Positions 9,667-39,561 are shown, counted from the stretch's first letter. The stretch is DNA of 64,000 nucleotides from Candidatus Zixiibacteriota bacterium (GCA_020351995.1 CP070674.1:1413307-1477306), one strand, 5' to 3'. The notes: a model not told the origin generated them from the letters alone. Translations and numbers: made by a program.

Positions 9667-9705
9667 CCCCGCAGTGACCTTGAGTCACTGCGGGGTTCTA
9701 CTTTT
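9667..9705 (+). terminator. Intrinsic terminator candidate after 7274..9616 (hairpin lies between convergent genes)
   Basis: Perfect 12-bp stem ccccgcagtgac / gtcactgcgggg (9667..9678 and 9684..9695) with a 5-nt loop, followed by ttctacttttcgg. Confidence 0.65.
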
Positions 9706-9724
9706 CGGATGCTGTCACTCTATT

Positions 9725-11674: not shown

Positions 11675-11763
11675 GTGATTCTTACTCCAACATTACGGTT
11701 ACTCTTAATTATACAAGAAAAAGTCCATCATATTCATATTATATCGGTCACGGGGCTGAATAA

Positions 11764-12315
11764 TTAGACGTCTATGACCTTGCCGATGAACGGCAGGTTG
11801 CGGTATTTCTGAGTATTATCCAGTCCAAAACCGATTACGAATTCGTTCCCAATAGAAAAACCTTTAAAGGCAATATCCAGTTTCGTCCGGTGACTGCCCG
11901 GTTTGTCAACCAGTGTAACAATCTCAACCGAAGCCGGTTCCATCTTCGTCACCAGGTTGAGGATAGCCGAAACGGTACGACCGGAATCGACCACACCTTC
12001 CACAATCAGCACGTGTCGATCCTTCAGCGGAATATGGCTGGTGCTGCTAAACAGAATTTCGTCATCCGGGGTGGTGCCCCGTCGATACGAGGCCGCCGAG
12101 ACAAATTCGACTTCCAGCGGCAGCTTGATATAGCGCATCAAATCAGCCAGAAATACAACGCAGCCCTTCAGAACTCCCAGCAACACCGGATTTCTGTTCT
12201 TGTAGGCCGCGGTGATGTCGCGGCCGAGTTCGGCGATGCGCCGGGCGATGGTCTTCTGATCGAGAAGCAGCTCAAAGGGCTTCAACTCAAGATTCTTTTC
12301 GCCTGCTGAATCCAA
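11764..12315 (-). CDS. hpt: Hypoxanthine phosphoribosyltransferase
   Basis: 183 aa with PRPP-binding VLIVEGVVDSGRT and C-terminal LPFIGKV. The start at 12315 is TTG and overlaps the tilS 3' end, so the exact start is uncertain. Confidence 0.85.
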   Translation of the reverse strand: MDSAGEKNLELKPFELLLDQKTIARRIAELGRDITAAYKNRNPVLLGVLKGCVVFLADLMRYIKLPLEVEFVSAASYRRGTTPDDEILFSSTSHIPLKDRHVLIVEGVVDSGRTVSAILNLVTKMEPASVEIVTLVDKPGSHRTKLDIAFKGFSIGNEFVIGFGLDNTQKYRNLPFIGKVIDV

Positions 12316-13675: not shown

Positions 13676-13711
13676 AATACCAAGATAATACGACCGCCCG
13701 CCGCGTCGAGT

Positions 13712-14844: not shown

Positions 14845-14926
14845 AATACCTCCCATTGAATCAGGTTTAAAGGATTAGTGTTTTTCCCAGCAGCGTCAAT
14901 TGTGAGGGGGGCTACGCTGCGACCGC

Positions 14927-22568: not shown

Positions 22569-22920
22569 GATCAACCACCAGCAGCGGAAGATTCGACTCT
22601 AAAGTCACCGGACTCAATCCCGCTCTCCCGTAGATATCCGCCTTGTAGCGGCTCTCTAACATGGACAGAATTATCTTACCATTGCCTATGCTGTCCCCAA
22701 TGTCGGATGTCCGACAGTATTCAACGGGACTAATCCATCCCGGCTGCCATGACTTGACAGGGGCGGCGCAAGACGCTTTATAACAAACAATTACGTTCAG
22801 GCCTCGATGGCTGACGCCGGGACGACAATCTAAAGGTTTGGCCCCTGAAGCCGATATTTTCTTAAAGGACCGGCAGTGCCGGTTCCGCCCTACCATTTAT
22901 TAGAAAGGACTATCGGGGTT

Positions 22921-23352
22921 ATGTACCACATTACAGGATACCATTGGAAAAACGACCGCGGCCTCAGTCTACTCGAAGTGCTGGTGGCAATGATTGTGCT
23001 CGCGGTCGGTATCTTAGGACTGGCACCTATGGTTGTGTTATCTATCGAAGGAAACAGTATATCGCGCGACTTCATCGTCGCCACCGAACTGGCTAAGGAG
23101 CAGCTTGAGCTATATGAAGCGCAGGATGTATTGATGAAGGCCAAGCCGGCACCCGCGCTTCCCACTGATAGTCTCAGTGATACCTTGATTTACTTACCCG
23201 ACGTTGACGGCTATTCGCGCACCGTTACCATTCAGGCCGCTGAAGGAATCAATCCGCCGAATCTTGTGAAAGTGACAATCGACATATCCTGGACAGACAA
23301 GTTAGGCAAGGTCCGCGCGATAAGACACTCAACACTGATGATGAATAACTGA
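22921..23352 (+). CDS. Type IV pilus minor pilin, PilV-like
   Basis: Prepilin N-terminus MYHITGYHWKNDRG/LSLLEVLVAMIVLAVGILGLAPM, the class III signal with Glu at +5. The ORF track starts at GTG 22876; I prefer ATG 22921. Confidence 0.75.
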   Translation: MYHITGYHWKNDRGLSLLEVLVAMIVLAVGILGLAPMVVLSIEGNSISRDFIVATELAKEQLELYEAQDVLMKAKPAPALPTDSLSDTLIYLPDVDGYSRTVTIQAAEGINPPNLVKVTIDISWTDKLGKVRAIRHSTLMMNN

Positions 23353-23368
23353 GGGGGGCAGGTTGAAA

Positions 23369-23986
23369 ATGAATACAAAAGAGAAAAAGCTCATTGGCGG
23401 ACACGCCGGTTTCACTCTTATAGAGCTTCTTATAGCGGCTCTCATTACGGCGATTCTGGCCGTTGCGGCGTTTCAGTTCTATGTCACCATGCAGCAGCAG
23501 GTCACTTCTCAAAAAGAGATTTCGGACATGCAGCAGATAAGCCGCTCGTGTCTCCAGGAAATCAGCAAAACTCTCCGCATGGCGGGCTACATGCTTCCCG
23601 AGGGCCACCCTGCCTTTGACACGATAAGCTCTGCCGAAATATGGGTATACATCGGGACCGGTGACCTGAGTGCCCTGGACCCGGTCGACACGACCAAATA
23701 CTACCTTCAGGAGTTTGATGCTGCTCAGTATGACAAGGTTCCGGGTCTCGCTGCTGGCATGAAACTATACAATCTGATTAAGGAGTCCGAAGAGCCCGGC
23801 TGGACACAGCCCGAAATCTTCGCCGACTACATAACGTCGCTATCCTTTCTGCCTATTGGTTCGTCAGAAATAGCAGTCACCATAGAGGTGCAAACCTCGA
23901 AAAAGGATGAAACCTTCAACGCTAACAACGGCTTTCGAACCTTTGTCAACACCGAGCGCGTTAACATGCGCAACCTGACGATATGA
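23369..23986 (+). CDS. Type IV pilus minor pilin, PilW-like
   Basis: MNTKEKKLIGGHAG/FTLIELLIAALITAILAVAAFQFY prepilin cleavage/methylation motif. The gene order V-W-X matches the classical fimU-pilVWXY1E order. Confidence 0.75.
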   Translation: MNTKEKKLIGGHAGFTLIELLIAALITAILAVAAFQFYVTMQQQVTSQKEISDMQQISRSCLQEISKTLRMAGYMLPEGHPAFDTISSAEIWVYIGTGDLSALDPVDTTKYYLQEFDAAQYDKVPGLAAGMKLYNLIKESEEPGWTQPEIFADYITSLSFLPIGSSEIAVTIEVQTSKKDETFNANNGFRTFVNTERVNMRNLTI

Positions 23987-25188
23987 GGAGGATCAAGTTG
24001 AAGAAGCTGATAAATGACAATAGTGGCGGGGCGCTTGTTATCGTCCTCGGTTTAATGCTTCTGCTGACAATAGCGGCCATACTGGCGGTGCATACCGCCC
24101 AGACCGATATAGACCTGTCTTTCAATCAGGTAGACTACGACCACGCCTTCTACATCGCCGACGCCGGCCTGAAAAAGGCCTTCAATGAACTGAACAAGGA
24201 CAACTTCTGGTCAGCCGGCTACCTTGAAATGGCCTTTGAGGACGGCGCGTATACCGTCATCACGGAACGGGATATCCCCGTCACCGATTCGGCCTTCGAC
24301 CCGATCACCGACAGGGTGACCCTGCGATCAACGGCCAGCTATCGGGAGTCTCAGGCTAACCTGAGAGCAGTGGTGGTACCGGAATTATTCTACCCCTTCA
24401 AATACGCCGTGTATGGAGAAGATGGGATTCTCATGGACAACAATTCGGAAACCGATTCCTACAACTCCGATGACGGGGCTTATGTTGATTCGCTCGCCGG
24501 GACAGAAGGCGATGTCGCATCTAATGGAACTATAGTCCTGGAGAACTCAGCGTTGGTAAACGGCGACGCCAGTAGTTCCCTGACCGGTGGTGTCAGCGTT
24601 TGTGCCACGTGTGGCGTCACGGAAGATGTTAGCGATGCAGCCGAGCCTTTCGAAATTCCGCCGATACCGGATTCGGTGTTCACTTACTATGAATCAAACA
24701 ATGACAACATTACCGGTGTTGATCCGGTAACCAGCATGATTTACCCCGGGCCGGATCTGATCCTGGCCATCGCCGACACGATAACCCTGACAACCGGCGT
24801 TTACTACTTCAACGACATAACGATGAACTCAAATTCGGTGATCATTCTGGATCCGACAGATCCAGACGTTGAGGTAAAGATATATATTCGCGGAACACTC
24901 ACCCTGGACAATAACACCACCATAAACCCGAATAATGACCCGACGGATTGCCTGATCTTCTCCGACGGCCAGATAGTTACAATCGGCAACGATACTGAGA
25001 TTTATGCCGCGTTCTACGGACCGGATGCCGATGTTGATCTGGGTAACAGCTGCGATTGGTACGGTTCGATAATAGCTGAATCGGTGAGCATGGTCAATAC
25101 GGGAAGCCTTCATTATGACGAAGCGCTGGCACCGATTCCGATCACTACCACCGGCAATATGCTCATGATATCCTGGATCGAGGATTAG
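23983..25188 (+). CDS. PilX-N-domain pilus assembly protein with C-terminal beta-helix-like domain
   Basis: 401 aa. N-terminus GGALVIVLGLMLLLTIAAILAVHTAQTDIDLS is PilX_N-like, with no Glu5. ATGA overlap with the PilW-like gene. C-terminal block FYGPDADVDLGNSCDWYGSIIAESVSMVNTGSLHYDEAL. Confidence 0.7.
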   Translation: MRRIKLKKLINDNSGGALVIVLGLMLLLTIAAILAVHTAQTDIDLSFNQVDYDHAFYIADAGLKKAFNELNKDNFWSAGYLEMAFEDGAYTVITERDIPVTDSAFDPITDRVTLRSTASYRESQANLRAVVVPELFYPFKYAVYGEDGILMDNNSETDSYNSDDGAYVDSLAGTEGDVASNGTIVLENSALVNGDASSSLTGGVSVCATCGVTEDVSDAAEPFEIPPIPDSVFTYYESNNDNITGVDPVTSMIYPGPDLILAIADTITLTTGVYYFNDITMNSNSVIILDPTDPDVEVKIYIRGTLTLDNNTTINPNNDPTDCLIFSDGQIVTIGNDTEIYAAFYGPDADVDLGNSCDWYGSIIAESVSMVNTGSLHYDEALAPIPITTTGNMLMISWIED

Positions 25189-25420
25189 CACTTTTGGCCC
25201 GAATCGCCTCACAGGCACATGGGAACTATAGCAGTATGTGAGGCACGACCGACGGCCCGGGCCCGATGAAAAGGTCGTCGATATTGAGAGTCAATTGGAC
25301 TCGAACGCTTTTAGACAGGTAACATGCGAGGGGCCTTTCTTCCTGGCGGGGGCTGACCAGCCTGCATGACATCAAGCGTGTTACAACAAGATAACGCTGT
25401 AATACGAGGAGTGTGTAGCC

Positions 25421-26587
25421 GTGGGACAACTACACATCAGTCAGCAAGGCGGGGCATTGCTCATCGCTCTGGGCATCATGTTACTGCTCACTATCGCAGC
25501 CCTCATAGCCGTGGATACCGCTCAAACCGATATGGAGCTATCCTTTAACCAGGTTCACTCCAGCCAGTCATTCTATGTCGCCCAGGCCGGGCTTATCCGG
25601 GCTTTCAACGAGATTAACAATGACAATGACTGGACGGCGGGCTTTCTGAACGAGCCGTATGAGGGGGGCTATTACACCGTCATCGTGGTTGACAGCACGG
25701 TCGAGGGTGCTCTGGTAGACACTGTCATTCTTCGCGCCACCGGTAAGATCGGCGACGCCAACACTAATCTCGAGGCACTGGTCGTTCCCGAATACTGGCG
25801 ACCATTTCAGTATGCTATGTTCGGAGACAGCGCCATAGTGATGGACAATAACACCTGTACCGACTCCTATAACTCGGACTCAGGCGACTATGCCTCCACC
25901 ATGGATCTAATCAATGGTGATGTCGCCTCTAACGGCGACCTGGAGTTCATCCATACCGCCGTTGTCGGCGGCGACGCCTCGAGCGCGACCGAAGGAGGCA
26001 TCTTTGTCTGTGCCACCTGCACCGTTTATGGAGATACCACCAGCAAGATCGATCCTCTCCCCGTTCCACCGGTACCGGATTCCGTTTACGATTGGGCACG
26101 GTCGGTCAACGCCGCTCCCGGCGGGCTTTCGGATCCATCCATGTACGATGGCGTCACTCATGCTTTAAACATGAATCTCAACTCAACGCTGACTCTATCC
26201 GGAGGCGTCTATTATTTCTCCGAAATCACAATAGAGAACAATTCCCGGCTGCAGGTTGCGCCTGGCGAAAGCGTCGAAATCTACGTGACCGGCGATATAT
26301 CTATCGGGCAAAACGCGTATGTCAATACTGACGGCGATCCGGCCGACATGGTGATTTTCTCCGATGGCGACTCCCTGCAGCTAGGCATGAGCACGGTGGT
26401 GCACGCCGCCTTTTATGGGCCTTCGGCAATTATGACAATGGAGAACAATTGTCAGTACTATGGATCAATCGTAGCCTACTCCGGCAGCGCCGTAAATGCC
26501 GCCTGTATACACTACGATCGGGCACTCCGGGAAGTGGAAGGCGGAAAAACCGGCGTGATGCATATGATCGCCTGGAAAGAATTATAA
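25421..26587 (+). CDS. Second PilX-N-domain protein (paralog of 23983..25188)
   Basis: 388 aa, GTG start. N-terminus GGALLIALGIMLLLTIAALIAVDTAQTDMELSFNQV. Collinear with its paralog, including the VCATC and FYGPSA...YGSIVA...IHYDRAL blocks. Confidence 0.7.
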   Translation: MGQLHISQQGGALLIALGIMLLLTIAALIAVDTAQTDMELSFNQVHSSQSFYVAQAGLIRAFNEINNDNDWTAGFLNEPYEGGYYTVIVVDSTVEGALVDTVILRATGKIGDANTNLEALVVPEYWRPFQYAMFGDSAIVMDNNTCTDSYNSDSGDYASTMDLINGDVASNGDLEFIHTAVVGGDASSATEGGIFVCATCTVYGDTTSKIDPLPVPPVPDSVYDWARSVNAAPGGLSDPSMYDGVTHALNMNLNSTLTLSGGVYYFSEITIENNSRLQVAPGESVEIYVTGDISIGQNAYVNTDGDPADMVIFSDGDSLQLGMSTVVHAAFYGPSAIMTMENNCQYYGSIVAYSGSAVNAACIHYDRALREVEGGKTGVMHMIAWKEL

Positions 26588-26596
26588 CAAAACAGG

Positions 26597-26630
26597 AGGC
26601 CGAGGCGACAATCCACTGCCGTCTCGGCCT
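26597..26630. terminator. Hairpin between convergent genes (PilX-like 2 and the giant gene)
   Basis: AGGCCGAG...CTCGGCCT 8-bp stem. On the minus strand it is followed by CCTGTTTTG; there is no T-run on the plus strand. Confidence 0.45.
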
Positions 26631-26659
26631 GCTATAATCAACTCTAATATCAAAGAAAT

Positions 26660-29600
26660 CTATGGCACGTTGATTGTGTAACTCTGGTAGTCGGTGCCAT
26701 AGTCATTGGTCGCCTCAATCACGACATCGTAATCGCCCGAAGAACCGGGCGTAAACTCCACTTCGCCGGTCACAGGGTCTATGGTCATCCCGCTCGGGTA
26801 GGTTGTCAATGCGTAAGTTGGGGCGGGATACCCGCTGGCGTCAGCGTCGTACGTGTACAGTACACCGACGGACCCGGTCGTTATCGGCGTGGACGTAAAC
26901 GACGGCGCAATTCCAACTACCGTAATAGCAAATGACTGAGTGTCGCTGCCGTAAGAGTTGATAGCAACAACCGTGACGTCATAATCACCAACATCAGCCG
27001 GGGTCCACTCGATCACGCCGGTATTGGCATCGACTGTCATACCCGACGGCTTTGTCGTCAGCGCGTAAGTCGGGGCCGGATAGCCATCAGCTTCAACATC
27101 ATAGCTGTAAAGTTGACCGTAGGTACCCGTTGTGACCGCCGTGGAAGTGATTGTCGGGACCTCGACGATGGTCAACACGAAGTCATCAGTATCGGTGCCG
27201 TAAGCGTTGGTAGCTTCAACGACTACATCGAAATCACCCACTCCCGTCGGGGTCCAGGCAATTTCCCCGGTGATGGGATCAATCGTCATTCCCGTCGGGT
27301 AAGTCGTCAGCGAATAGGTTGGAGCAGGGTAACCCGTGGCATCGGCATCTTCAGTGAAACCTACGCTAAGAAGCTGTACCTGATCAGGGATATCAGCCAG
27401 GAAAGGCGCCACGCCCGATACACTGATAGTGAACGGCTGCGTATCGGTGCCATAAATATTGGTAGCTTCAACAACCACATTATAATCGCCTATATCCGAC
27501 GGTGTCCACTCTACCACACCCGTATTGGCGTCAATTGTCATACCTGTTGGGTATGTTGTCAGTGAGTAAGTTGCCGCCGGGTAGCCTCCGGCCTCGGCGT
27601 CATAGCTATACAATTGGCCATAAGTACCTGTCGTCACCGGCGTTGACGTAAACGCCGGGGCAACACCTGTCACCGAGATCGTGAAGCTCTGGGGTGTCGT
27701 TCCAGCGGAGTTGGTGGCTTCAATGACAACGTCGACATTCCCGGTATCAGACGGCGTCCAGCGAACCAAACCCGTACCACTATTGATAGTCATTCCCGCG
27801 GGGTACGTAGTAAGAGAATATGTCGGCGTCGGCTCACCGGTAGCGTCGGCGTTGTACTCATAGAGTACATTATAGGTACCGGTGGTTATCGGAGTCGAGG
27901 TGAAGGTCGGCGGTATTCCTACAACGGTAAGGATGAAACTCTGGGTGTCGGCGCCATTAACATTAGCCGCTTCAACCTCCACATCGTAATCCCCGATACT
28001 GCCCGGGGTCCAAGTAATTACACCAGTGGTGGCGTTAATCTTCATGGCCGAAGGAGACGTTATCAAATCGAACGTAGGTGCCGGATTTCCCGTAGCCTCG
28101 ACATCATAAGTGTATGGTTGGTCAATCGTGGCAGTCGTAACCGGTGTTGATGTTATCACGGCTCCAGCCGGGGCCGCCGATACACTGATCGTGAAATTCT
28201 GGTATGCGGTTCCATAAGTGTTAGTGGCCTCGATTTCGACATCGTAGTCACCCTCCGAATCCGGGGTCCATTCCACAAGACCGGTTCCGCTATTAATCGT
28301 CATTCCGGTCGGATAGGTGGTTAGCGAATACGTCGGGGTCGGATAACCATCGGCATCCGCGTCATAGGAATATAGTACACCGGTTACTCCGGTAGTGACC
28401 GGCGTCGAGGTAAAGCTCGGCGCGACACCGCTCACGGATATGGTAAAGCTCTGATAATCCGTGCCGTAAATATTGGTAGCTTCCACCACAACATCGGCAT
28501 CGCCGGTGGCGTCTGGTGTCCATTCAATGACACCGGTGTTGCCATCGATGGTCATCCCGGTCGGGTACGTTGTGAGAGCGAATGTCGCCGCAGGGTATCC
28601 GCTGGCATTGGCATCATAGCTGTAGAGCTGACCGTAAGTCGCCGTGGTAACAGGAGTTGACGTAAACGCTGGAGCCACACCGGTGACACCGATAGTATAG
28701 CTCTGCTGTGTACTTCCGGCGGCATTGATCGCTTCGATAACGACATCGACATCACCCGTATCTGCGGGCGTCCAGCGTACAACACCGGTTCCACTATTGA
28801 TTGTCATACCGGCTGGCCCATCGAGCAGGGCGTAGGTAGGCGTGGGATCGCCCGTGGCGTCGGCATCATACTCGTACTGTACACCGTAGGTCGCCGTAAG
28901 AATCGGCGTGGAGGTAAAGCTTGGAGCAACTCCCGACACCGTCACCACGAAACTCTGGGTGTCGGCGCCATTGACGTTAAGAGCCTCCACTTCAACATCG
29001 AAGTCACCGACAGACCCCGGTGTCCAGCTGATAAGCCCGGTCGTTGAGTTGATGTTCATGCCCGACGGCGAGGTAATGAGGTCAAACGTCGGGGCCGGGT
29101 AGCCGGTAGCCTCAACGTCGTAAGCATACGCCTGCCCCACCGTCACGCTCGTGACAGGTGTAGAGGTAATCACCGGTGGTTCCGGGGTTCCGGAAACCGA
29201 TATGGTGTAATTCTGAATATCAAGACCGTAGGCGTTACTGGCTTCGATAGTAACATCAACATCACCCTCTTCGGTCGGTGTCCACTGCACCACACCGGTC
29301 GCCGGATCAATCGTCATACCGGTCGGGAATTCTGTAAGGGCGAACGTCGCCGCCGGGTAACCGTCGGTCTCGGCATCATAACTATATAGCACTCCAACCA
29401 CACCGGTCGTCGGAGGACTTGATATAAAAGTCGGGGCAATGCCGGCCACCGAAATAGTGAAATTCTGAATGTCCGTTCCATAAGCGTTTGCGGCCTCGAC
29501 GATGACATTATGATCGCCATCATCATCCGGTGTCCACTGAATAAGGCCGCTCGCCGGGTCAATCGTCATTCCGGTGGGGAAGGTTGTCAGCGAGAACGTA

Positions 29601-32182
29601 GCCGCCGGGTAACCATCGGCGTCGGCATCATAACTATATAATTGTTGATATGTTCCGGTGGTGATCGGGGTCGAGGTAAAGGTCGGCGCGATTCCGGCTA
29701 CCGATATGGTGAAGCTCTGCGGATCGGTACCCGAACTGTTACTGGCTTCAACCACAACATCGTAATCCCCTACGTCACCAGGCGTCCACTGAATCAGCCC
29801 CGTAGCCGGGTCGATGGTCATCCCGGTAGGGTAAGTCGTGAGCGCGAAGGTTGGGGCCGGATTGCCGCTTGCTTCAACATCGTATGTGTATAATTGATTG
29901 TACGTCCCGGTGAGAATAGGAGTCGAGGTGATCACTGGCGCCTCGGCAGGCAGGACCGAGATTGTGAAATTCTGCGGCGTCGTGCCGGCCGAGTTAGTGG
30001 CCTCCAGAACAACGTCGTAGTCACCGTCCGAAGGCGGAGTCCACTGGATAAGACCGGTAATAGGATCGACAGTCATTCCGGCCGGAAAGGTAACCAGAGA
30101 ATAACTGGGCACCGGATACCCGTCAGCATCGGCGTCATAAACATATAGTTCACCGGAAACACCTGTCAGGGGTGGGCTTGTGGTAAACGAAGGGGCGATA
30201 CCGCTGACCGAGATGGTATAGGGCTGATAATCATCGCCCCACGTATTCGAAGCGTTAATGGTAACATCGAAATCGCCAACGTCATCCGGCGTCCATTCTA
30301 CGAGGCCGGTAACCGGATCGATAGTCATTCCCGGCGGTGCCAAAGTAAGTGAGAAATCCGGATCTGGGTCGCCATCGGCGTTGGCGTCATAGCTATACAG
30401 CACACCGTAAGTAGCCGTCGTTACTGGAGTGGACGTGAACATGGGCGCGATTCCGCCGAGGGGACAGTCGATTGGAGCGGGGCCGCCGCGGTGCAGGTAG
30501 TCGATCAAATAGTCAACATCGAGAATATCTACCTGGTCATTGTCATCGGCATCGGCCTCCTGCTCGCAAATCGGTGCCGAGCCGTCTCGAAAGAGATAGT
30601 CGACTATAAAGTCCAGGTCAAGAAGATCGAATTGACCGTTATGGTCGGCATCGCCACGCAATTCACAGCACTCCAGCCATTCAAGCTCGGTGTTGACGTA
30701 TAAATACATTCGCTCACCCACAATTGAGTCAACCCGCACATAGATGCCCGAATAACCATAGTAACTGTCACTGCTCGGATAAGTCTGCGGACCAAACTCG
30801 CTCTGTCCGGGGACATCGGACGAAAAAAGCGCCCCTTTTCTGGTCTCCCAGGGATACCACCATTGGGCGCTGTCGGTCAAACGGCCTTCAGGGTTATAAG
30901 TATAATCCTTGAGCGGGTTGTAACCGGCATCCTCGACGCACACGGCATAGTGGGGATCTAAGGGCGTTCCCTGGTTGAGTGATATAATCTCTTGGGGGTC
31001 GACCAGCGAATCATCAATATGTGTTATCAATAGTCCGCGGTCCAGCACGTCATAACCGAACGTGAGATTGGGATAGAACCATGAGCAAAAATCGGAGTCG
31101 AATTTATCGAACTTACCTGCTGACTGCGGATTTCGGTACTCGAGTAAGAAGTACTCCAGGTCGCTGTCATTGATGGGTATTCTATATAATGAAGAATCTG
31201 CGGTTGTCTCAACATTGTATATGACGAGATCATGATACTCGCCCTCAAGAATGATCGGCTCGATATACCCCAGCCGCACCTTGTTCCAGCCGCAGTAATG
31301 ATTGGCGCTTACCCCGCCCAGCGACAAATAACCGTAGCCATAGTAACCCATTGGATCCCAATCAACAAGCGGATGGTCGTTCTGGTCGTTCGCAATATTA
31401 TAGGTCGATGTCACCAGTTTGCCGTCGTAGTCGTACAGGTCTGCCAGGCCGATGTTATGGCCAACTTCGTGAACAAACACGCGGATACCGCTCCGTACAG
31501 TCTCTCCGCTGAACTGCACCGGGTATATGGGGTCCCGCAGTGGTTTGAGCTCCGGACAGGTGTTCCAGGCGTCCACCTGGACCCGGTCATAGCGGCCCCA
31601 GCCCTGATCACTGGCAGCGGCATAGGACCAGATATCGAGAGGATCCTGGGAATCTTCTTCTCCGACACCGGAACGGATGAAACAGATCGCGTCGGCCTTC
31701 CTATCCTCGTTGCCATCATATAGAGAATAGTCAATGTACGGATCTAATATCTCAAACAGCGAACTGAATGGAAAATACTTTCCAAATGTGGGGCCGGCGT
31801 TGTACCAATCAAATACATCGCCGGTAAGCTTCACCTGGCCATACGAAACCTCATGGATGTAATCGGCCAGAGAACCCTCGGGAAGAACGTCGCGGGAGAA
31901 GAGCAAAGTATCGAAAGCCTGCCATGGTAACGTCCCGGGCCGATCTCCCCATTCCACCAGAATAGCCAGCAGCCTGAGACTGTCTCCCTTAAAGCTTGCC
32001 GCTGAGAGGAGGTCAGCTTGTGTCCCGGCATATCCGTGCCAGGGAAGTCTGCCCCATTGAACCTGGACCTGTGATTCGGGCATATCGAAGACGAGAAAAT
32101 AATCGGGGTCGGAAGCCAGCGCGGGCACGCCAAGGAGTAAGACAAGGCTGCCAATTAGAAGTTTTCTGGGCATTTTCTTCAC
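26660..32182 (-). CDS. Giant secreted protein: M6/InhA-like metalloprotease domain + internal dockerin-like module + 15 tandem He_PIG/cadherin-like Ig repeats
   Basis: 1840 aa with signal peptide MKKMPRKLLIGSLVLLLGVPALA. Zinc site FVHEVGHNIGLADLYDYDG, with HEVGH at 31457..31471. Dockerin-like CCELRGDADHNGQFDLLDLDFIVDYLFRDGSAPICEQEADADDNDQVDILDVDYLIDYLHRGGPAPIDC at 30455..30673. Repeats span 26663..30454. Confidence 0.9.
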   Translation of the reverse strand: MKKMPRKLLIGSLVLLLGVPALASDPDYFLVFDMPESQVQVQWGRLPWHGYAGTQADLLSAASFKGDSLRLLAILVEWGDRPGTLPWQAFDTLLFSRDVLPEGSLADYIHEVSYGQVKLTGDVFDWYNAGPTFGKYFPFSSLFEILDPYIDYSLYDGNEDRKADAICFIRSGVGEEDSQDPLDIWSYAAASDQGWGRYDRVQVDAWNTCPELKPLRDPIYPVQFSGETVRSGIRVFVHEVGHNIGLADLYDYDGKLVTSTYNIANDQNDHPLVDWDPMGYYGYGYLSLGGVSANHYCGWNKVRLGYIEPIILEGEYHDLVIYNVETTADSSLYRIPINDSDLEYFLLEYRNPQSAGKFDKFDSDFCSWFYPNLTFGYDVLDRGLLITHIDDSLVDPQEIISLNQGTPLDPHYAVCVEDAGYNPLKDYTYNPEGRLTDSAQWWYPWETRKGALFSSDVPGQSEFGPQTYPSSDSYYGYSGIYVRVDSIVGERMYLYVNTELEWLECCELRGDADHNGQFDLLDLDFIVDYLFRDGSAPICEQEADADDNDQVDILDVDYLIDYLHRGGPAPIDCPLGGIAPMFTSTPVTTATYGVLYSYDANADGDPDPDFSLTLAPPGMTIDPVTGLVEWTPDDVGDFDVTINASNTWGDDYQPYTISVSGIAPSFTTSPPLTGVSGELYVYDADADGYPVPSYSLVTFPAGMTVDPITGLIQWTPPSDGDYDVVLEATNSAGTTPQNFTISVLPAEAPVITSTPILTGTYNQLYTYDVEASGNPAPTFALTTYPTGMTIDPATGLIQWTPGDVGDYDVVVEASNSSGTDPQSFTISVAGIAPTFTSTPITTGTYQQLYSYDADADGYPAATFSLTTFPTGMTIDPASGLIQWTPDDDGDHNVIVEAANAYGTDIQNFTISVAGIAPTFISSPPTTGVVGVLYSYDAETDGYPAATFALTEFPTGMTIDPATGVVQWTPTEEGDVDVTIEASNAYGLDIQNYTISVSGTPEPPVITSTPVTSVTVGQAYAYDVEATGYPAPTFDLITSPSGMNINSTTGLISWTPGSVGDFDVEVEALNVNGADTQSFVVTVSGVAPSFTSTPILTATYGVQYEYDADATGDPTPTYALLDGPAGMTINSGTGVVRWTPADTGDVDVVIEAINAAGSTQQSYTIGVTGVAPAFTSTPVTTATYGQLYSYDANASGYPAATFALTTYPTGMTIDGNTGVIEWTPDATGDADVVVEATNIYGTDYQSFTISVSGVAPSFTSTPVTTGVTGVLYSYDADADGYPTPTYSLTTYPTGMTINSGTGLVEWTPDSEGDYDVEIEATNTYGTAYQNFTISVSAAPAGAVITSTPVTTATIDQPYTYDVEATGNPAPTFDLITSPSAMKINATTGVITWTPGSIGDYDVEVEAANVNGADTQSFILTVVGIPPTFTSTPITTGTYNVLYEYNADATGEPTPTYSLTTYPAGMTINSGTGLVRWTPSDTGNVDVVIEATNSAGTTPQSFTISVTGVAPAFTSTPVTTGTYGQLYSYDAEAGGYPAATYSLTTYPTGMTIDANTGVVEWTPSDIGDYNVVVEATNIYGTDTQPFTISVSGVAPFLADIPDQVQLLSVGFTEDADATGYPAPTYSLTTYPTGMTIDPITGEIAWTPTGVGDFDVVVEATNAYGTDTDDFVLTIVEVPTITSTAVTTGTYGQLYSYDVEADGYPAPTYALTTKPSGMTVDANTGVIEWTPADVGDYDVTVVAINSYGSDTQSFAITVVGIAPSFTSTPITTGSVGVLYTYDADASGYPAPTYALTTYPSGMTIDPVTGEVEFTPGSSGDYDVVIEATNDYGTDYQSYTINVP
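26663..30454 (-). repeat. 15 tandem coding repeats of 246-258 nt (82-86 aa Ig-like units)
   Basis: Repeat boundaries counted by hand. Consensus: G(V/I)AP.FTSTP.TT.TYG.LYSYDADA.GYPAPTY.LTTYP.GMTID..TG...WTP...GDYDVV.EATN.YGTD.Q.FTISV. Confidence 0.9.
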
Positions 32183-32318
32183 TGTTGTTGTCCTGTTCTT
32201 AACTGGTGTGTACGTAAGTGTCAGAGTTCTTAAGTAATCGGAGTAAATCTCTCACCCGGACGGGGGTCCTGGGGCGAATCGGGTAAAGTGCTACTCGACA
32301 CGGTGATTAACTGGCCTA

Positions 32319-32347
32319 AATATAGGCTACAAAGTCTTTTTTGTCAA
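32319..32347 (-). promoter_or_regulatory. Sigma70-type promoter TTGACA-N17-TATATT for the giant gene
   Basis: The minus strand reads gtgTTGACAaaaaagactttgtagccTATATTtagg. This implies a leader of about 130 nt. Confidence 0.65.
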
Positions 32348-32674: not shown

Positions 32675-32762
32675 TGGTGCCGAAGGGGGGACTCGAACCC
32701 CCACTCCCGTAAAGAGAACTGCGCCCTGAACGCAGCGCGTCTACCAGTTTCACCACTTCGGC
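32675..32762 (-). tRNA. tRNA-Leu (anticodon CAG), CCA encoded
   Basis: Folded by hand. Acceptor GCCGAAG/CTTCGGC, anticodon stem CTGCG/CGCAG with loop TTCAGGG, long variable arm, T arm GGGGG-TTCGAGT-CCCCC, discriminator A and CCA. Confidence 0.9.
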
Positions 32763-32912
32763 ACACGGTGAACCGCGCTAATAATAGTCCAAGACACTAA
32801 GGTTGTCAAGCAAGTTCGCGCGCAGACGCATAAACCCGATATAGCACAACGCCTTTAAGTTACAGAAAAAAGGTTGCCCTCACTCACAGCCAGCCATATA
32901 CTTAACGACTAA

Positions 32913-34040: not shown

Positions 34041-35207
34041 GTGGGGTCGATTGCTATGATTGAAGTTGCACTTCTTATCGTTATTCTGATGTTCAAATTC
34101 GGCCGCGACCTTTCTGGCCTCTCGTATGATTGGTTGGACCGGGCCCTGATCGGCCTCGAATCTCGCATGCGCATGGTTGGTTGGACGCTGCTTCTCTCGC
34201 TGCTGCTTATTGCCCTGGCTACGGTGTATGCTCGTATCGCCGTCGAATGTACCTATCTCGGTAGGCACTATGCCGCGTTGGCAGAGAACCCCTTTGCTCT
34301 TGGCAGCTCAAACCCGGTCTCATATCGCATATTGACTCCCCTTATCAGCTACTTGATCGGCCTTCGTGGCCAGGGAATCATCATCACCAACCTGCTAATA
34401 TCGGTGGTAATGGTAGCATGCGTTTACATGTATTTCCGCAAAACTGCCCCCCGACCTGGAGACGCTTTTCTGATGTCTACTGTGATCACCTTCTCTCTGG
34501 TGGTGCTGACCTCCATACACTGCGGAGGATACTGCGACATCATGTCCTATCTCCTGATTTTTCTCATGTGGTGGTTTCGTAAGCACCGGACGTTGTTCTA
34601 CCTGATGTTCCTGGCCGGACTCCTTAATCGAGAATCCGTTCTGTTTCTGCTGCCGTGGTTCATTGTTATAAGCCTCGATTCTGACAGACCATGGTATCTT
34701 AGGATTGTGGAGATGATATTTGGCTTCGGCATTACTATCCTCGTTTACTACTTATTCCGTCAGTGGGTAACCTCGGGTGCCGAGATAAAGTACTCTCTGA
34801 GCTATTATCTCGAGCCGTTCGTCACGAACCCACTGCAGAGACTCAAACGGACCGTTTATTATCATTCCCTGGGTCTCTTCTCAGTCTACAAAGTTCTCTG
34901 GGTCTTCCCCTGTGTTGCAGCGCTATCCTGGTGGCGCAACCGGAAGTATGCCTCGCTCGCAAACGTTCTCATCCTATTGTTGTGCGCATGGGCACAGCTT
35001 TTTCTCGCCATTGACACATCCCGTATGTTCACATTAGGTTTCATGGTTATGATTGTTGCCGTGGATGACTTGCTCAAGACCGACTTCATGCACTTTCGAC
35101 GGTGGGCATTCTGGGCCGTGCTGTTTAACCTGATGATTCCTCAAGTCTATACTGCGGGTAAAGTGGTAGAAGTGTGGCAGACTCTCACCACGCACATTTC
35201 GTTATGA
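34041..35207 (+). CDS. Polytopic integral membrane protein, unknown function
   Basis: 388 aa with about 9-10 hydrophobic segments and no soluble domain. GTG start at 34041; an ATG lies at 34056. Confidence 0.6.
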   Translation: MGSIAMIEVALLIVILMFKFGRDLSGLSYDWLDRALIGLESRMRMVGWTLLLSLLLIALATVYARIAVECTYLGRHYAALAENPFALGSSNPVSYRILTPLISYLIGLRGQGIIITNLLISVVMVACVYMYFRKTAPRPGDAFLMSTVITFSLVVLTSIHCGGYCDIMSYLLIFLMWWFRKHRTLFYLMFLAGLLNRESVLFLLPWFIVISLDSDRPWYLRIVEMIFGFGITILVYYLFRQWVTSGAEIKYSLSYYLEPFVTNPLQRLKRTVYYHSLGLFSVYKVLWVFPCVAALSWWRNRKYASLANVLILLLCAWAQLFLAIDTSRMFTLGFMVMIVAVDDLLKTDFMHFRRWAFWAVLFNLMIPQVYTAGKVVEVWQTLTTHISL

Positions 35208-35234
35208 CTGCTCTAAGAATCCAGTTGATCCTGA

Positions 35235-37541: not shown

Positions 37542-37761
37542 CCCGCATTATCGAATGCCGCATTTCATCACCCTGATATATAAAATTCGCCCTTCTTGGT
37601 TAAAACACTTTTGGACTGTGGCTGGAGGAGACAGGGGTCGTATTCGCGCCACACCAATTTCACAAAAGTAAACTCCCTTCACTTAATGCTGTCAAGAAAA
37701 TACTTACCTCAATCTGTACTGCAGCCTCATGCCGCCCGGAACTGGCCACTGAGTTTAACGC

Positions 37762-37790
37762 TTGACAGAATCACCGGCGATCAGTAATCT
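37762..37790 (+). promoter_or_regulatory. Promoter candidate TTGACA-N17-TAATCT for the 37961.. operon
   Basis: Hexamers and spacer read by eye. Lies about 170 nt upstream of the small ORF. Confidence 0.35.
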
Positions 37791-37960
37791 ACTGTGCAAT
37801 GGTTGCTACGCCGGTTAACTTTAATCAGCGACACCCTCGGCGCCGGTCTGCAATCTGGAATCGATTGACATATAATGCCAGCGATGGCGGCTTACTATTG
37901 ACGCCTTGGTATTCGCCCCGCACAAGAACAGTTGCCGAAAGGGAGGAGAGTAATAGATTG

Positions 37961-38191
37961 ATGACGCGAAGAATAATCTACATCACACTGGCCTCAGGGG
38001 TGATAGTAATAACAATGCCCGACCATGCCCACGCTTATATAGACCCATCAACTGGCAGCTATATTCTGCAGATCCTGCTCGCGGGACTACTTGGTGCTCT
38101 CTTCACTCTCAAAATCTTTTGGAGAAATATCAAGGGATTCTTATCCAGATTTCTCGGTAAAGACAGACAGCACGATGTCGGAGCAGACTGA
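37961..38191 (+). CDS. Small membrane protein (76 aa): signal-like segment + IDPSTGS motif + TM + basic tail
   Basis: A GGGAGGAGAG RBS lies 10 nt upstream of ATG 37961. Sequence: MTRRIIYITLASGVIVITMPDHAHAYIDPSTGSYILQILLAGLLGALFTLKIFWRNIKGFLSRFLGK... The 3' end overlaps the methyltransferase start by 17 nt. Confidence 0.5.
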   Translation: MTRRIIYITLASGVIVITMPDHAHAYIDPSTGSYILQILLAGLLGALFTLKIFWRNIKGFLSRFLGKDRQHDVGAD

Positions 38192-39560: not shown

Positions 39561-39561
39561 C

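What the first reader, a model, noticed from the sequence alone, without database searches (positions are those of the whole stretch)
26660..32182. 1840-aa M6-like metalloprotease with an internal dockerin and a 15-unit Ig stalk that ends without any anchor
The domain order is: signal peptide, a catalytic region of about 480 aa, a subtype-1 dockerin, then 15 He_PIG/cadherin-like repeats. The catalytic region carries FVHEVGHNIGLADLYDYDG, an HExxH plus GLxDxY pattern like InhA/M6.

The protein stops immediately after the last repeat (...QSYTINVP). I see no T9SS CTD, LPXTG, TM anchor or lipobox.

Dockerins are normally terminal. Here the module sits between the enzyme and a long stalk of about 1260 aa, so the stalk's free end is the distal or binding end, or is recognised by something else.

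The gene has its own consensus promoter and lies convergent to the minor-pilin cluster.
Basis: partly seen in the sequence, partly recalled or inferred. Interest (0 to 1): 0.7.

Follow-up and report, generated by a model that had tools for sequence, protein, structure and literature searches.

The report
Secreted metalloprotease with long Ig stalk
A real gene from an uncultured Zixibacteria genome encodes a secreted zinc protease that has gained a rod of 15 antibody-like domains behind its usual docking module, which makes it an unusual variant of a common protein family and not a new kind of system.

Summary
ORF 26660..32182 (-) encodes 1840 aa: a Sec signal peptide, an InhA/M6-like metzincin region (HEVGHNIGLAD plus a conserved Met), a dockerin-type module (aa ~503-575), and exactly 15 He_PIG units running to the stop. 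There is no T9SS CTD, LPXTG, lipobox or second hydrophobic segment.

It is not an assembly artefact. The units share at most 71% DNA identity and 24 nt of exact sequence. An independent syntenic ortholog (1757 aa, 14 units) ends with the same ...YTINVP.

Comparative data explain the internal dockerin. The family is large in Zixibacteria, and 117 of the 120 best homologs end at the dockerin. Stalks of 5, 14 and 15 units were added behind it in one small clade, at a locus that lies convergent to a minor-pilin cluster. All modules are under purifying selection.

Curated M6 and Dockerin_1 HMM cut-offs are not reached, but AF2 and Foldseek give InhA2 and type I dockerins as the best matches.

The most likely mechanism is partly inferred. 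The protein crosses the inner membrane by Sec and the outer membrane by a CTD-independent route. The dockerin-type tag, shared with five neighbouring exoproteins, docks it to a partner. The very acidic rod acts as a spacer or binding arm. No cohesin partner was found.

It is a new variant of a known kind, of moderate to low interest.

The parts
32319..32347 (-). Sigma-70-type promoter-like site TTGACA-17-TATATT, about 137 nt upstream of the GTG start
   Evidence: Pattern scan, 11/12 match. The same TTGACAAAA...TATATTT is conserved upstream of the ortholog in L007 and of paralogs in L001, L003 and L004, while sequence further upstream is not conserved.
32183..32318 (-). 5' leader of about 135 nt, strongly conserved between orthologs, function unknown
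   Evidence: The promoter-to-start region is largely invariant between window and L007 (whole 285-column alignment: 87% mean identity, with the divergence concentrated upstream of the -35 box), while synonymous sites of the CDS are near saturation (pS ~0.7). No Rfam match. Folding energy is not unusual, z 0.17. A possible closing stem GUGUCGAGU/ACUCUGACAC is kept in 3 sequences.
26660..32182 (-). Complete CDS, 1840 aa plus stop (about 197 kDa precursor, pI ~4)
32111..32182 (-). Sec (SPase I-type) signal peptide, aa 1-24, predicted cleavage after ALA
   Evidence: Read from the sequence. It is the only hydrophobic segment. pLDDT is low here in the AF2 model.
31985..32110 (-). N-terminal segment, aa 25-66, with invariant D33 and near-invariant P35. 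It may be a pro-segment (inferred).
   Evidence: Invariant columns across 85 homologs. Moderate pLDDT. InhA2 and PrtV are N-terminally processed (for the zymogen structures; PMC2613228).
31121..31984 (-). InhA/M6-like metzincin catalytic domain, aa ~67-354
   Evidence: TIGR03296 matches aa 74-354, E 2.4e-24, below its cut-off. pLDDT is mostly 86-98 over aa ~70-250, dropping to 52-72 over aa ~250-290. Foldseek top hits 4YU6/4YU5, E 1e-11.
31439..31471 (-). Zinc-binding motif H238-E239-x-x-H242-x-x-G245-x-x-D248
   Evidence: Read from the sequence. H238, E239, H242 and D248 are invariant in 85 homologs. This is the metzincin motif with Asp as third ligand, as in thuringilysins (PMC12237041).
31349..31351 (-). 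M278, candidate Met-turn methionine (DWDPMGYYGYG)
   Evidence: Invariant in 85 homologs. Its position in the structure was not checked.
30683..31120 (-). Beta-rich domain following the catalytic domain, aa ~355-500
   Evidence: AF2 secondary structure and pLDDT. Covered by the family alignment.
30446..30682 (-). Dockerin-type module, aa ~501-579. It has two Ca-loop/helix repeats (D511, D513, N515, D519, D522 and D544, D546, N548, D552, D555) flanked by C505/C506, C539 and C573.
   Evidence: Dockerin_1 18.4 bits over positions 2-56 of 57. Fold matches to 4FL4, 2MTE, 4DH2 and 2CCL. D555 and C573 are invariant. pN 0.092 against the ortholog.
26663..30445 (-). Stalk of 15 He_PIG (cadherin-like Ig) units, aa 580-1840. 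D+E = 144, K+R = 4, no Cys.
   Evidence: Pfam finds 15 stretches. Unit table and identities. Composition. AF2 di-unit model pLDDT 96.8. Best TM match is the SraP cadherin-like modules 4M03.
26596..26632 (.). GC-rich hairpin between the two convergent genes, probably a bidirectional terminator
   Evidence: Sequence. Fold -27.3 kcal/mol, z -3.5.
22876..26587 (+). Context: four-gene minor (pseudo)pilin-like cluster (PilV-like, GspJ/PilW-like, and two PilX_N/GspK-like proteins with DUF7305), convergent to the protease gene
   Evidence: Pfam and NCBIfam. The same arrangement is found in L001, L004 and L007 but not in L005.

Best explanation
The gene encodes an intact, selectively maintained, secreted zinc endopeptidase. 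It belongs to a family expanded in Candidatus Zixiibacteriota and related to InhA/M6 (thuringilysin-type metzincins).

The standard family member is about 575 aa: signal peptide, N-terminal segment, catalytic domain (HExxHxxGxxD plus a Met), a beta-rich domain, and a Cys-flanked dockerin-type Ca-binding module at the very C-terminus. In the small clade that includes this genome, He_PIG (cadherin-like Ig) units were appended behind the dockerin. One relative has 5, the closest relative has 14, and this gene has 15. The dockerin is internal because of that accretion.

How it most likely works:
- (shown) A Sec signal peptide is present, there is no T9SS CTD or other sorting signal, and the catalytic and Ca-loop residues are intact.
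- (inferred) The protein crosses the inner membrane by Sec and is cut after Ala24. It crosses the outer membrane by a CTD-independent route such as type II secretion, as the M6 protease PrtV does.
- (inferred) Outside the cell, the dockerin-type module keeps the docking role it has in the stalk-less paralogs and in at least five other exoproteins encoded in the same 64 kb. It holds the enzyme on a partner that has not been identified.
- (inferred) The 131-kDa, extremely acidic rod of 15 Ig-like domains is on the order of 50-60 nm if extended (my estimate of about 4 nm per domain). It projects from that point as a spacer or binding arm with a free far end.
For: Identity and integrity:
- ORF and domains.
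- 85-sequence alignment with invariant H238, E239, H242, D248, M278 and C573.
- AF2 model with pLDDT 82 and pTM 0.82. Foldseek ranks the InhA2 zymogen 4YU6/4YU5 first (E 1.4e-11, prob 1.0). The next peptidases are ADAMs at E ~1e-2. The tail of the model matches solved type I dockerins.

Not an artefact:
- Units share at most 71% DNA identity and 24 nt of exact sequence, and TRF finds nothing.
- The independent ortholog P0121 (locus L007) has 14 units. Units 1-12 are collinear, the C-terminal end is the same, and synteny is complete.
- pN/pS is about 0.08-0.13 over about 0.7 for the catalytic domain, the dockerin and the stalk alike.

Accretion:
- 117 of 120 best homologs carry the dockerin within 15 aa of the C-terminus. 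The three exceptions are followed by He_PIG.
- At the same position, convergent to the pilin cluster, there are 4 genes of 573-577 aa (L004), 2 of about 1000 aa with 5 units each (L001), 1 of 1757 aa (L007) and 1 of 1840 aa (window).

Dockerin as a general tag:
- Five more signal-peptide proteins in the window end in dockerin-like modules, two of them above the Pfam cut-off.
- A homolog of the N-terminal domain of one of these proteins carries a T9SS CTD where the others carry a second domain and the dockerin.
- Internal dockerins bind as well as terminal ones in R. flavefaciens (PMC5301203).

Export:
- The organism has T9SS cargo (TIGR04183 hit in ORF 62338-63813), but this protein has no CTD.
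- PrtV, an M6 protease with unanchored C-terminal Ig-like PKD domains, is exported by the T2SS (PMC4519245).

Stalk:
- The di-unit model superposes as a pair on the rod-forming cadherin-like modules of SraP (TMq 0.82, rmsd 2.6 A).
Against: - The curated HMM cut-offs for M6 and for Dockerin_1 are not reached.
- No cohesin or other receptor was found. The genome could not be searched as a whole, and a profile of neighbouring dockerin proteins hits only dockerins in the PDB.
- Dockerin-like modules are common in organisms without cohesins (my own knowledge). Proteins with up to 11 dockerin-like stretches appear among the representative hits. The module may therefore not be a docking device at all.
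- The outer-membrane route is inferred only by exclusion and analogy.
- Nothing shows which end of the protein is attached. In PrtV the C-terminal Ig-like domains are the part that binds the vesicle surface.
- No activity data exist.
Confidence: 0.5

Rival explanations
1. PrtV-like topology. The protein is the same, but the He_PIG tail is the attachment end. It binds non-covalently to the cell's own outer-membrane or vesicle surface (LPS, polysaccharide, or Ca2+ bridges). This holds the protease and the dockerin tens of nanometres away from the cell, and the dockerin then recruits other partners or only stabilises the fold.
For: - In V. cholerae PrtV (M6 family), the unanchored C-terminal PKD domains are required for association of the full-length enzyme with outer-membrane vesicles (PMC4519245).
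- The increase in repeat number (5 to 14/15 units) looks like selection for length, as in stalks that project a functional head (SraP-like geometry).
- The units are uniform, and the last unit is not more conserved than the others (79% against 70-88%).
- The stalk is extremely polyanionic, 144 acidic to 4 basic residues.
Against: - The stalk-less paralogs (117 of 120), including one in the same genome (P0013), would then have no means of attachment other than the dockerin.
- He_PIG is a different family from PKD.
- No binding data exist.
Confidence: 0.22
2. Freely released enzyme. The protein is not attached to the cell. The He_PIG array binds particulate or polymeric substrates by avidity, and the dockerin-like module is only a Ca2+-stabilised structural element without a cohesin-type partner.
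For: - There is no anchor of any known type.
- No cohesin was found, and no paper links Zixibacteria with dockerins.
- Many proteins with multiple dockerin-like stretches exist.
- PrtV and InhA are recovered from culture supernatants (PMC2613228).
Against: - The dockerin is as constrained as the catalytic domain.
- It recurs as a C-terminal tag on unrelated exoproteins of the same genome, which suggests a shared function beyond folding.
- One homologous cargo domain carries a T9SS CTD, a surface-attachment signal, in place of the dockerin.
Confidence: 0.2
3. Scaffold or pilus-coupled system. Either the 15 He_PIG units act as receptor sites for the dockerin tags of other exoproteins, as a cohesin-free scaffoldin would, or the dockerin docks on the DUF7305 tip proteins of the adjacent pilus-like system, which also exports the protease.
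For: - A dockerin followed by many beta-sandwich repeats resembles scaffoldin layouts.
- Six dockerin-tagged proteins are encoded in 64 kb.
- The protease genes lie convergent to the same minor-pilin cluster in four genomes, despite very different copy number and architecture.
- The pilin-like proteins have weak GspK/GspJ/GspI similarity.
Against: - He_PIG is an 84-aa Ig-like fold, not a cohesin.
- The genes are convergent and separated by a terminator hairpin.
- A more distant Zixibacteria genome has the pilin cluster without a protease within 10 kb (L005). Paralogs in another genome lie next to a Bat/VWA cluster instead (L003).
- There is no direct evidence of interaction.
Confidence: 0.05
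4. Assembly chimera or decaying gene. The repeat number is wrong, or the ORF is a fusion or pseudogene.
For: Long repeat arrays are a classic source of mis-assembly. The exact protein is not on record in the public gene collection.
Against: - Repeats are only 49-71% identical at the DNA level, with at most 24 nt shared exactly, and TRF finds no array.
- An independently assembled ortholog has the same order of units 1-12 and the same end.
- dN/dS is far below 1 over the whole length.
- The 5.5-kb frame is open in both genomes.
Confidence: 0.02

Closest known systems
Zixibacterial ~575-aa 'M6 family metalloprotease domain-containing' / 'dockerin type I' proteins (e.g. P0005; P0013 from the same genome; the four tandem copies in CP070777.1)
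   Same: They share 52-60% identity over aa 1-577 and have the same signal peptide, catalytic motif, beta-rich domain and Cys-flanked dockerin. They often occupy the same genomic position, convergent to the minor-pilin cluster.
   Different: They end at the dockerin. The window protein carries 1261 further residues (15 He_PIG units). None has been studied experimentally.
P0121 (1757 aa, GCA_975963145.1) and P0001/P0002 (997/1003 aa)
   Same: They have the same architecture of protease, internal dockerin and He_PIG array ending at the last unit. P0121 is 85% identical over aa 1-577, fully syntenic, and ends in the same YTINVP.
   Different: They have 14 or 5 units instead of 15. Window units 13-14 have no clear counterpart in P0121.
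Immune inhibitor A (InhA1/InhA2, Bacillus; MEROPS M6, thuringilysins; PDB 4YU5/4YU6)
   Same: It is the best structural match of the AF2 model (E 1.4e-11). It has the zinc motif HExxHxxGxxD with Asp as third ligand, and it is secreted.
   Different: Structural alignment identity is only 12-13%. There is no PDB hit by sequence, and the curated HMM cut-offs are not reached. InhA has no dockerin and no Ig-repeat tail, and it comes from a Gram-positive host.
PrtV of Vibrio cholerae (M6 family, 918 aa)
   Same: It comes from a Gram-negative host. It has an M6-type domain followed by unanchored C-terminal Ig-like domains (2 PKD). It is secreted by the T2SS, is Ca2+-stabilised, and its tail domains mediate surface (OMV) association (PMC2613228, PMC4519245).
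   Different: It has two PKD domains, not 15 He_PIG units, and no dockerin. Homology of the catalytic part to PrtV was not tested here.
Cellulosomal proteins with internal dockerins (Ruminococcus flavefaciens FD-1)
   Same: [quoted passage not shown]
   Different: Those belong to a Firmicutes cellulosome with known cohesins and carbohydrate-active enzymes. Here the organism is a diderm of the FCB group, the cargo is a protease, and no cohesin is known.
SraP cadherin-like (CDHL) tandem modules of Staphylococcus aureus (PDB 4M03/4M00)
   Same: It is the best whole-pair superposition of two consecutive stalk units (TMq 0.82, TMt 0.81, rmsd 2.6 A, 24% identity), which suggests a rod-like tandem arrangement.
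   Different: SraP has two such modules and a C-terminal LPXTG anchor (my own knowledge). Here there are 15 units and no anchor.

Membership tests
Peptidase family M6 / thuringilysins (InhA-like metzincins) | Zinc-binding motif HExxHxxGxxD, with Asp as third ligand | tested here: met
   HEVGHNIGLAD at aa 238-248. H238, E239, H242 and D248 are invariant in 85 homologs. Motif definition from PMC12237041.
Peptidase family M6 / thuringilysins (InhA-like metzincins) | Conserved Met-turn methionine below the zinc site | tested here: inconclusive
Peptidase family M6 / thuringilysins (InhA-like metzincins) | Score above the curated cut-off of the family HMMs (Pfam PF05547, NCBIfam TIGR03296) | tested here: not met
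   TIGR03296 scores 86.7 bits against a cut-off of 110.8, although E is 2.4e-24 over positions 2-272 of 286. PF05547 scores 16.9 bits against 22, and only around the motif. NCBI names some homologs 'M6 family metalloprotease domain-containing'.
Peptidase family M6 / thuringilysins (InhA-like metzincins) | Fold of the catalytic domain and following domains like InhA | tested here: met
   Foldseek of the AF2 model against the PDB ranks 4YU6/4YU5 (InhA2 zymogen) first, with E 1.4e-11 to 2.4e-10, prob 1.0 and TMq 0.50. The next peptidases score E >= 1e-2.
Peptidase family M6 / thuringilysins (InhA-like metzincins) | Zinc-dependent endopeptidase activity | not testable with these tools
   This needs enzyme assays.
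Dockerin type I (Pfam PF00404) | Two tandem segments of about 22 residues, each a Ca2+-binding loop (ligands at positions 1, 3, 5, 9, 12) followed by a helix | tested here: met
   Loop 1 is D511, D513, N515, D519, D522 and loop 2 is D544, D546, N548, D552, D555. Helices are at 520-531 and 553-564 in the model.
Dockerin type I (Pfam PF00404) | Score above the Pfam gathering threshold | tested here: not met
   18.4 bits against 22.9, E 0.0025, covering positions 2-56 of 57. Many homologs carry a precomputed PF00404 hit.
Dockerin type I (Pfam PF00404) | Dockerin fold | tested here: met
   The model tail matches 4FL4, 2MTE, 4DH2, 2CCL and 3UL4 with TMt 0.76-0.84, rmsd 1.4-3.0 A and prob 1.0. pLDDT is 79-92 over aa 510-570.
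Dockerin type I (Pfam PF00404) | Binds a cohesin module encoded by the same organism | not testable with these tools
   The whole genome could not be scanned. No cohesin hit appeared among the window ORFs scanned, nor in a profile of the neighbouring dockerin proteins against the PDB.
He_PIG (Pfam PF05345) Ig-like repeats | Match to the family HMM, with an Ig-like beta-sandwich fold | tested here: met
   15 stretches, 413 bits, E 1.9e-126. The AF2 di-unit model is all-beta with pLDDT 96.8. Its Foldseek matches are Ig and cadherin-like tandems.
T9SS cargo | C-terminal sorting domain (TIGR04183 type A, or type B) | tested here: not met
   No such hit at E<=0.1 in the whole protein. As a positive control, ORF 62338-63813 scores 31.8 bits against a cut-off of 23.
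Covalently or lipid-anchored surface proteins (LPXTG, lipoprotein, TM anchor) | LPXTG motif with a hydrophobic tail, a lipobox Cys, or a second hydrophobic segment | tested here: not met
   There is no LPXTG-like motif near the end, no Cys after the signal peptide cleavage region, and the only KD-19 window above 1.6 lies at aa 6-8.
Type II secretion substrate | Dependence on a T2SS for outer-membrane passage (no sequence signature exists) | not testable with these tools
   The only evidence is an analogy with PrtV and an adjacent cluster with weak GspI/J/K-like similarity.

The most novel reading that the evidence does not exclude
In Zixibacteria the dockerin-type module is the address tag of a cohesin-independent surface-display system that runs in parallel to T9SS. 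This protein is its scaffold or long-reach member. In one version the He_PIG units serve as docking sites for the other dockerin-tagged exoproteins. In the other, the dockerin docks on the DUF7305 tip proteins of the adjacent pilus-like system, which also exports it. Because the tag still works when buried 1261 residues from the C-terminus, it would be a binding module and not a terminal secretion signal.
Probability: 0.07. Interest if true: 0.75.

Novelty: new variant of a known kind. Interest (0 to 1): 0.35.

Why it matters
All the modules are of known kinds, and relatives are already named by annotation pipelines, so the protein itself is not a discovery of principle. It has value in three ways.

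1. It is a natural series. At one conserved locus the stalk has 0, 5, 14 and 15 units, which shows how a terminal docking module becomes internal while staying under selection. This argues that the module's function does not need a free C-terminus.

2. It points to an unstudied dockerin-tagged set of secreted proteins in a diderm candidate phylum that also uses T9SS. Six such proteins are encoded in 64 kb. No receptor is known, and no paper in the searched library mentions Zixibacteria together with dockerins.

3. It offers defined constructs (protease plus dockerin, and the stalk alone) for testing where extracellular proteases of sediment bacteria are held.

Tried and rejected
- Assembly artefact: rejected. 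TRF finds no array. The repeats are 49-71% identical at the DNA level with at most 24 nt shared exactly. An independent ortholog is collinear.
- Missed C-terminal domain: rejected. Only 72 nt lie before the convergent gene.
- Sequence search of aa 1-577 against the PDB: no hit at E<=1. Only the fold search found InhA2.
- Halophile-type acidity as the explanation for the acidic stalk: rejected. Cytoplasmic proteins in the window are not acidic, only the exported ones. He_PIG stalks of relatives are equally poor in Lys/Arg.
- Wider test of the pilin linkage: the genome-contig scan with the DUF7305 protein returned only two loci. The one Zixibacteria locus (L005) has the pilin cluster but no protease within 10 kb.
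- Metagenome scan with the dockerin-to-He_PIG junction: it returned only an unrelated He_PIG-containing T9SS cargo protein (L008).
- Search for a cohesin: the N-terminal domains of the neighbouring dockerin proteins looked vaguely cohesin-like by eye, but a 9-sequence profile hits only dockerins in the PDB.
- Conserved 5' leader: no Rfam family, an unremarkable folding energy, and too few sequences for covariation.
- Exact-sequence look-ups of the window protein with the GTG or the ATG start: not on record.
- The InhA structure paper (PMC4706643) is not held.
- Literature searches for Zixibacteria with dockerin or peptidase gave nothing relevant.
Full report
**1. What is there**

The window holds a single uninterrupted ORF at 26660..32182 on the minus strand, with a GTG start and 1840 codons.

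- The N-terminus (M)KKMPRKLLIGSLVLLLGVPALA|SD is a standard Sec/SPase I signal. It is the only stretch with a 19-residue Kyte-Doolittle mean above 1.6. No Cys follows it, so it is not a lipoprotein signal.
- Pfam finds He_PIG 15 times (413 bits, E 1.9e-126).
- My own segmentation gives 15 units of 81-86 aa covering aa 580-1840, and the stop codon follows the last unit directly.
- NCBIfam finds the broad M6 domain model TIGR03296 over aa 74-354. E is 2.4e-24, but the score of 86.7 bits is below the curated 110.8.
- Pfam Peptidase_M6 reaches only 16.9 bits, around the HExxH motif.
- Pfam Dockerin_1 aligns end to end (positions 2-56 of 57) at 18.4 bits, against a cut-off of 22.9.
- At E<=0.1 the whole-protein NCBIfam scan shows no T9SS, LPXTG, PEP-CTERM or other sorting model.
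- The same library detects a T9SS type A sorting domain above its cut-off in ORF 62338-63813 of this window (31.8 bits against 23). The organism therefore uses T9SS, and the negative result for the protease is meaningful.

**2. Is the gene real?**

Repeat arrays invite mis-assembly, but this array is old.

- Pairwise DNA identity between units is 49-71%, and the longest exact word shared by two units is 24 nt.
- Tandem Repeats Finder reports nothing.
- Units 6, 7, 8 resemble units 10, 11, 12 (75-83% at the protein level), which marks an ancient block duplication.
- The exhaustive representative search found a 1757-aa protein, P0121, that is 85% identical over aa 1-577.
- Its contig, L007 (GCA_975963145.1), is syntenic on both sides with the window. 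The shared order is C5-epimerase, tRNA-Leu, the protease, the convergent pilin-like cluster, a response regulator, PP2C and TrkA.
- P0121 has 14 units. Units 1-12 are collinear with the window's (70-88% identity). Window units 13-14 and P0121 unit 13 are not clear counterparts. The last units correspond (79%), and both proteins end in ...YTINVP.
- Nei-Gojobori counts against this ortholog give pN/pS of 0.084/0.68 for the catalytic part, 0.092/0.73 for the dockerin and 0.113/0.72 for the stalk. Synonymous sites are near saturation, so the ratios are rough, but they are clearly far below 1 throughout.
- The gene is intact and every module is constrained.

**3. Transcription unit**

- A TTGACA-17-TATATT site lies at 32347..32319.
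- The same extended promoter (TTGACAAAA...TATATTT) sits upstream of the ortholog in L007 and of paralogs in L001, L003 and L004, while sequence further upstream is not conserved.
- The leader of about 135 nt between it and the GTG is largely invariant between the window and L007. That contrasts strongly with the saturated synonymous sites.
- The leader has no Rfam match and no unusual folding energy. I note it as an unexplained conserved leader.
- Downstream, a GC-rich hairpin at 26596-26632 (-27.3 kcal/mol, z -3.5) separates the gene from the convergent pilin-like gene.
- The gene is therefore most likely monocistronic.

**4. What the N-terminal 577 residues are**

- A word-indexed search found 387 homologs. 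Every organism name attached to the listed hits but two is Candidatus Zixiibacteriota or candidate division Zixibacteria; the exceptions are a 'Candidatus Deferrimicrobium sp.' record (P0119) and an unclassified 'bacterium' (P0085).
- A neighbouring ORF of the window is 100% identical to a protein of a Zixiibacteriota MAG with JSV52_ locus tags on a 3.61-Mb contig. That MAG is most probably the source genome.
- In an 85-sequence alignment H238, E239, H242, D248, M278 and C573 are invariant.
- H-E-x-x-H-x-x-G-x-x-D is the metzincin motif with Asp as third ligand. Gomis-Ruth and colleagues describe this for snapalysins and thuringilysins, which are the InhA/M6 family (PMC12237041).
- An AF2 model built on this alignment has mean pLDDT 82 and pTM 0.82.
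- Foldseek against the PDB ranks the four chains of the Bacillus anthracis InhA2 zymogen first (4YU6/4YU5, E 1.4e-11 to 2.4e-10, prob 1.0, TMq 0.50). The next peptidases are ADAM-type metzincins at E of about 1e-2.
- The C-terminal 60-70 residues of the model match solved Clostridium thermocellum and related type I dockerins, with TMt 0.76-0.84 and rmsd 1.4-3.0 A.
- Both dockerin repeats have the full set of Ca-ligand positions: D511, D513, N515, D519, D522 and D544, D546, N548, D552, D555.
- Four cysteines (505, 506, 539, 573) flank and bisect the module. Disulfide clamping is an inference.
- 'M6-like metzincin plus dockerin-type module' is therefore supported by motif and fold, although both curated HMM thresholds are missed.

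**5. Why the dockerin is internal**

- Among the 120 best homologs, a dockerin HMM built from the family alignment places the module within 15 residues of the C-terminus in 117. The three exceptions (P0001, P0002 and the fragment P0041) are followed by He_PIG units.
- Most members are 568-580 aa and end ...PxPCP. A second group of 900-1000 aa has TSP3 repeats and another domain inserted before a still-terminal dockerin.
- The locus convergent to the pilin-like cluster carries:
  - four tandem genes of 573-577 aa without a stalk in CP070777.1 (L004);
  - two tandem genes of 1003 and 997 aa with 5 units each in GCA_975851805.1 (L001);
  - one 1757-aa gene in L007;
  - one 1840-aa gene in the window.
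- The source genome also keeps a canonical 577-aa paralog, P0013.
- The ancestral layout is therefore protease plus terminal dockerin. The stalk was appended behind it and then lengthened.
- Internal dockerins are not without precedent. In R. flavefaciens FD-1 a few dockerins are N-terminal or internal and 'were as active as C-terminal dockerins' (PMC5301203).

**6. The dockerin as a common tag in this organism**

- Five further ORFs of the window have signal peptides and end in dockerin-like modules. They are 4719-7103 and 7274-9616 (both DUF7948 plus SBBP beta-propeller), 13771-14856 and 17193-18344 (both with Dockerin_1 above the gathering threshold), and 15091-16770.
- ORF 15091-16770 is a paralog of 17193-18344 with two He_PIG units inserted before the dockerin.
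- A homolog of that protein's N-terminal domain from another assembly carries a T9SS CTD where the others carry a second domain and the dockerin (P0277).
- I read this as support for a localisation or docking role of the tag. It is one example only.
- No cohesin was found. None of the window ORFs I scanned hits Cohesin, and a profile of the neighbouring dockerin proteins hits only dockerins in the PDB. The whole genome could not be searched with these tools.
- No paper in the held library mentions Zixibacteria together with dockerin.

**7. The stalk**

- A two-unit AF2 model (units 14-15, using the 14 overlapping unit pairs as the alignment) is all-beta with pLDDT 96.8.
- By whole-pair superposition its best match is the tandem cadherin-like modules of the S. 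aureus adhesin SraP (4M03: TMq 0.82, TMt 0.81, rmsd 2.6 A, 24% identity). Many Ig tandems follow it in the list.
- The 1261 residues contain 144 Asp+Glu, 4 Lys+Arg and no Cys. Stalks of the relatives are similar.
- Exported proteins of the window are generally acidic and cytoplasmic ones are not, so this is not a salt-in proteome.
- At roughly 4 nm per Ig-like domain (my estimate from general knowledge), 15 units would span on the order of 50-60 nm.

**8. How it most likely works**

Shown:
- a Sec signal is present;
- the zinc site and Ca loops are intact;
- there is no known anchor or T9SS CTD;
- all modules are under purifying selection;
- the stalk is a lineage-specific addition.

Inferred:
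- The protein is cleaved after Ala24. It leaves the periplasm by a CTD-independent route.
- The documented precedent is V. cholerae PrtV, an M6 protease with two unanchored C-terminal PKD domains. It is secreted by the T2SS, is processed at both ends and is stabilised by Ca2+ (PMC2613228; PMC4519245).
- The dockerin-type module then holds the enzyme on a partner shared with the other tagged exoproteins. The polyanionic rod serves as a spacer or binding arm.

The main alternative turns the molecule around. In PrtV the PKD tail is what binds the vesicle surface, so here the stalk could be the attached end and the protease the distal one. A third possibility is a free enzyme whose stalk binds substrates. 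The data do not decide between these. I give the dockerin-docked version about 0.5, because the stalk-less paralogs have nothing but the dockerin to localise them.

**9. The pilin-like neighbours**

- The four genes at 22876-26587 carry prepilin N-terminal motifs, PilX_N, DUF7305 and an ice-binding-like adhesive domain. They have weak similarity to PilV, GspI, GspJ and GspK.
- The convergent pairing with the protease gene or genes recurs in four genomes whose DUF7305 proteins are 54-62% identical (L001, L004; the L007 identity was not computed).
- It does not recur in a more distant Zixibacteria MAG (43% identity; L005).
- Paralogs in CP070756.1 sit next to a Bat/VWA cluster instead (L003).
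- The genes are convergent and separated by a terminator. I treat functional coupling (export or display by a pilus-like system) as a low-probability lead.

**10. Verdict**

It is best filed as an M6-like, dockerin-tagged exoprotease of a Zixibacteria-expanded family. One small clade of that family has acquired a long He_PIG stalk behind the dockerin. This is a new variant of a known kind and not a new kind of system. Its main interest is as an entry point to the unstudied dockerin-tagged exoproteins of this phylum, and as a natural demonstration that the tag tolerates an internal position. I score interest at 0.35.

Noticed in passing
window 4719-7103 (+), 7274-9616 (+), 13771-14856 (-), 15091-16770 (-), 17193-18344 (-): Five further signal-peptide proteins end in dockerin-like modules. 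Two have DUF7948 plus SBBP beta-propeller domains. Two have Dockerin_1 above the Pfam cut-off. One has two He_PIG units before the dockerin. That makes six dockerin-tagged exoproteins in 64 kb of a diderm genome.
   Followed up: partly
window 15091-16770 (-) versus 17193-18344 (-); P0277: The 559-aa protein is a paralog of the 383-aa protein with two He_PIG units inserted, so He_PIG units move between exoproteins of this genome. A homolog of the shared N-terminal domain in another assembly (P0277) carries a T9SS CTD in place of the second domain and the dockerin.
   Followed up: partly
window 62338-63813 (-): This 491-aa protein has a T9SS type A sorting domain (TIGR04183, 31.8 bits against a cut-off of 23). 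The organism therefore uses T9SS alongside the dockerin-tagged proteins.
   Followed up: no
window 32183-32347 (-); L007 9830-10000; upstream of paralogs in L001, L003, L004: The promoter TTGACAAAA..TATATTT and a leader of about 135 nt are largely invariant between window and L007, while synonymous sites of the CDS are near saturation. A motif like GCAGCACCTT recurs early in the leaders of paralogs. There is no Rfam match, and the folding z-score is 0.17.
   Followed up: partly
window 26596-26632: A GC-rich hairpin (-27.3 kcal/mol, z -3.5) lies in the 72-nt gap between the two convergent genes. It is probably a bidirectional terminator. The consensus terminator scan did not list it.
   Followed up: yes
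window 26663-30445 (-), units 6-8 and 10-12: Units 6, 7, 8 are 75-83% identical at the protein level to units 10, 11, 12, which marks an old three-unit block duplication. Unit 13 has a degenerate first strand (PFLADIPDQVQLLSVGF). Units 13-14 have no clear counterpart in the 14-unit ortholog.
   Followed up: yes
window 34041-41526: About 7.7 kb is absent from the otherwise syntenic L007. It holds a 388-aa protein with no Pfam hit and a hydrophobic N-terminus, an AftA_N-like glycosyltransferase, a methyltransferase-like protein and a sulfatase-like protein. In L007 the C5-epimerase gene lies directly next to the sigma-70 gene.
   Followed up: partly
L004 (CP070777.1) 6220-13696; L001 1708-7874; L003 7927-11734: The M6-like protease genes occur as tandem arrays of 4, 2 and 2 copies in other Zixibacteria genomes. 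The locus next to the pilin cluster is a hot spot of copy-number and architecture change.
   Followed up: partly
representative library hits P0150, P0168, P0210 and others: Proteins with 8-11 separate dockerin-like stretches exist among the hits to the dockerin region. Their function is unknown. They caution against assuming that every such module is a cohesin binder.
   Followed up: no
window 32675-32762 (-): tRNA-Leu(CAG) lies between the C5-epimerase gene and the protease gene. It has its own 11/12 promoter-like site at 32809..32781 and is conserved at the same place in L007.
   Followed up: yes
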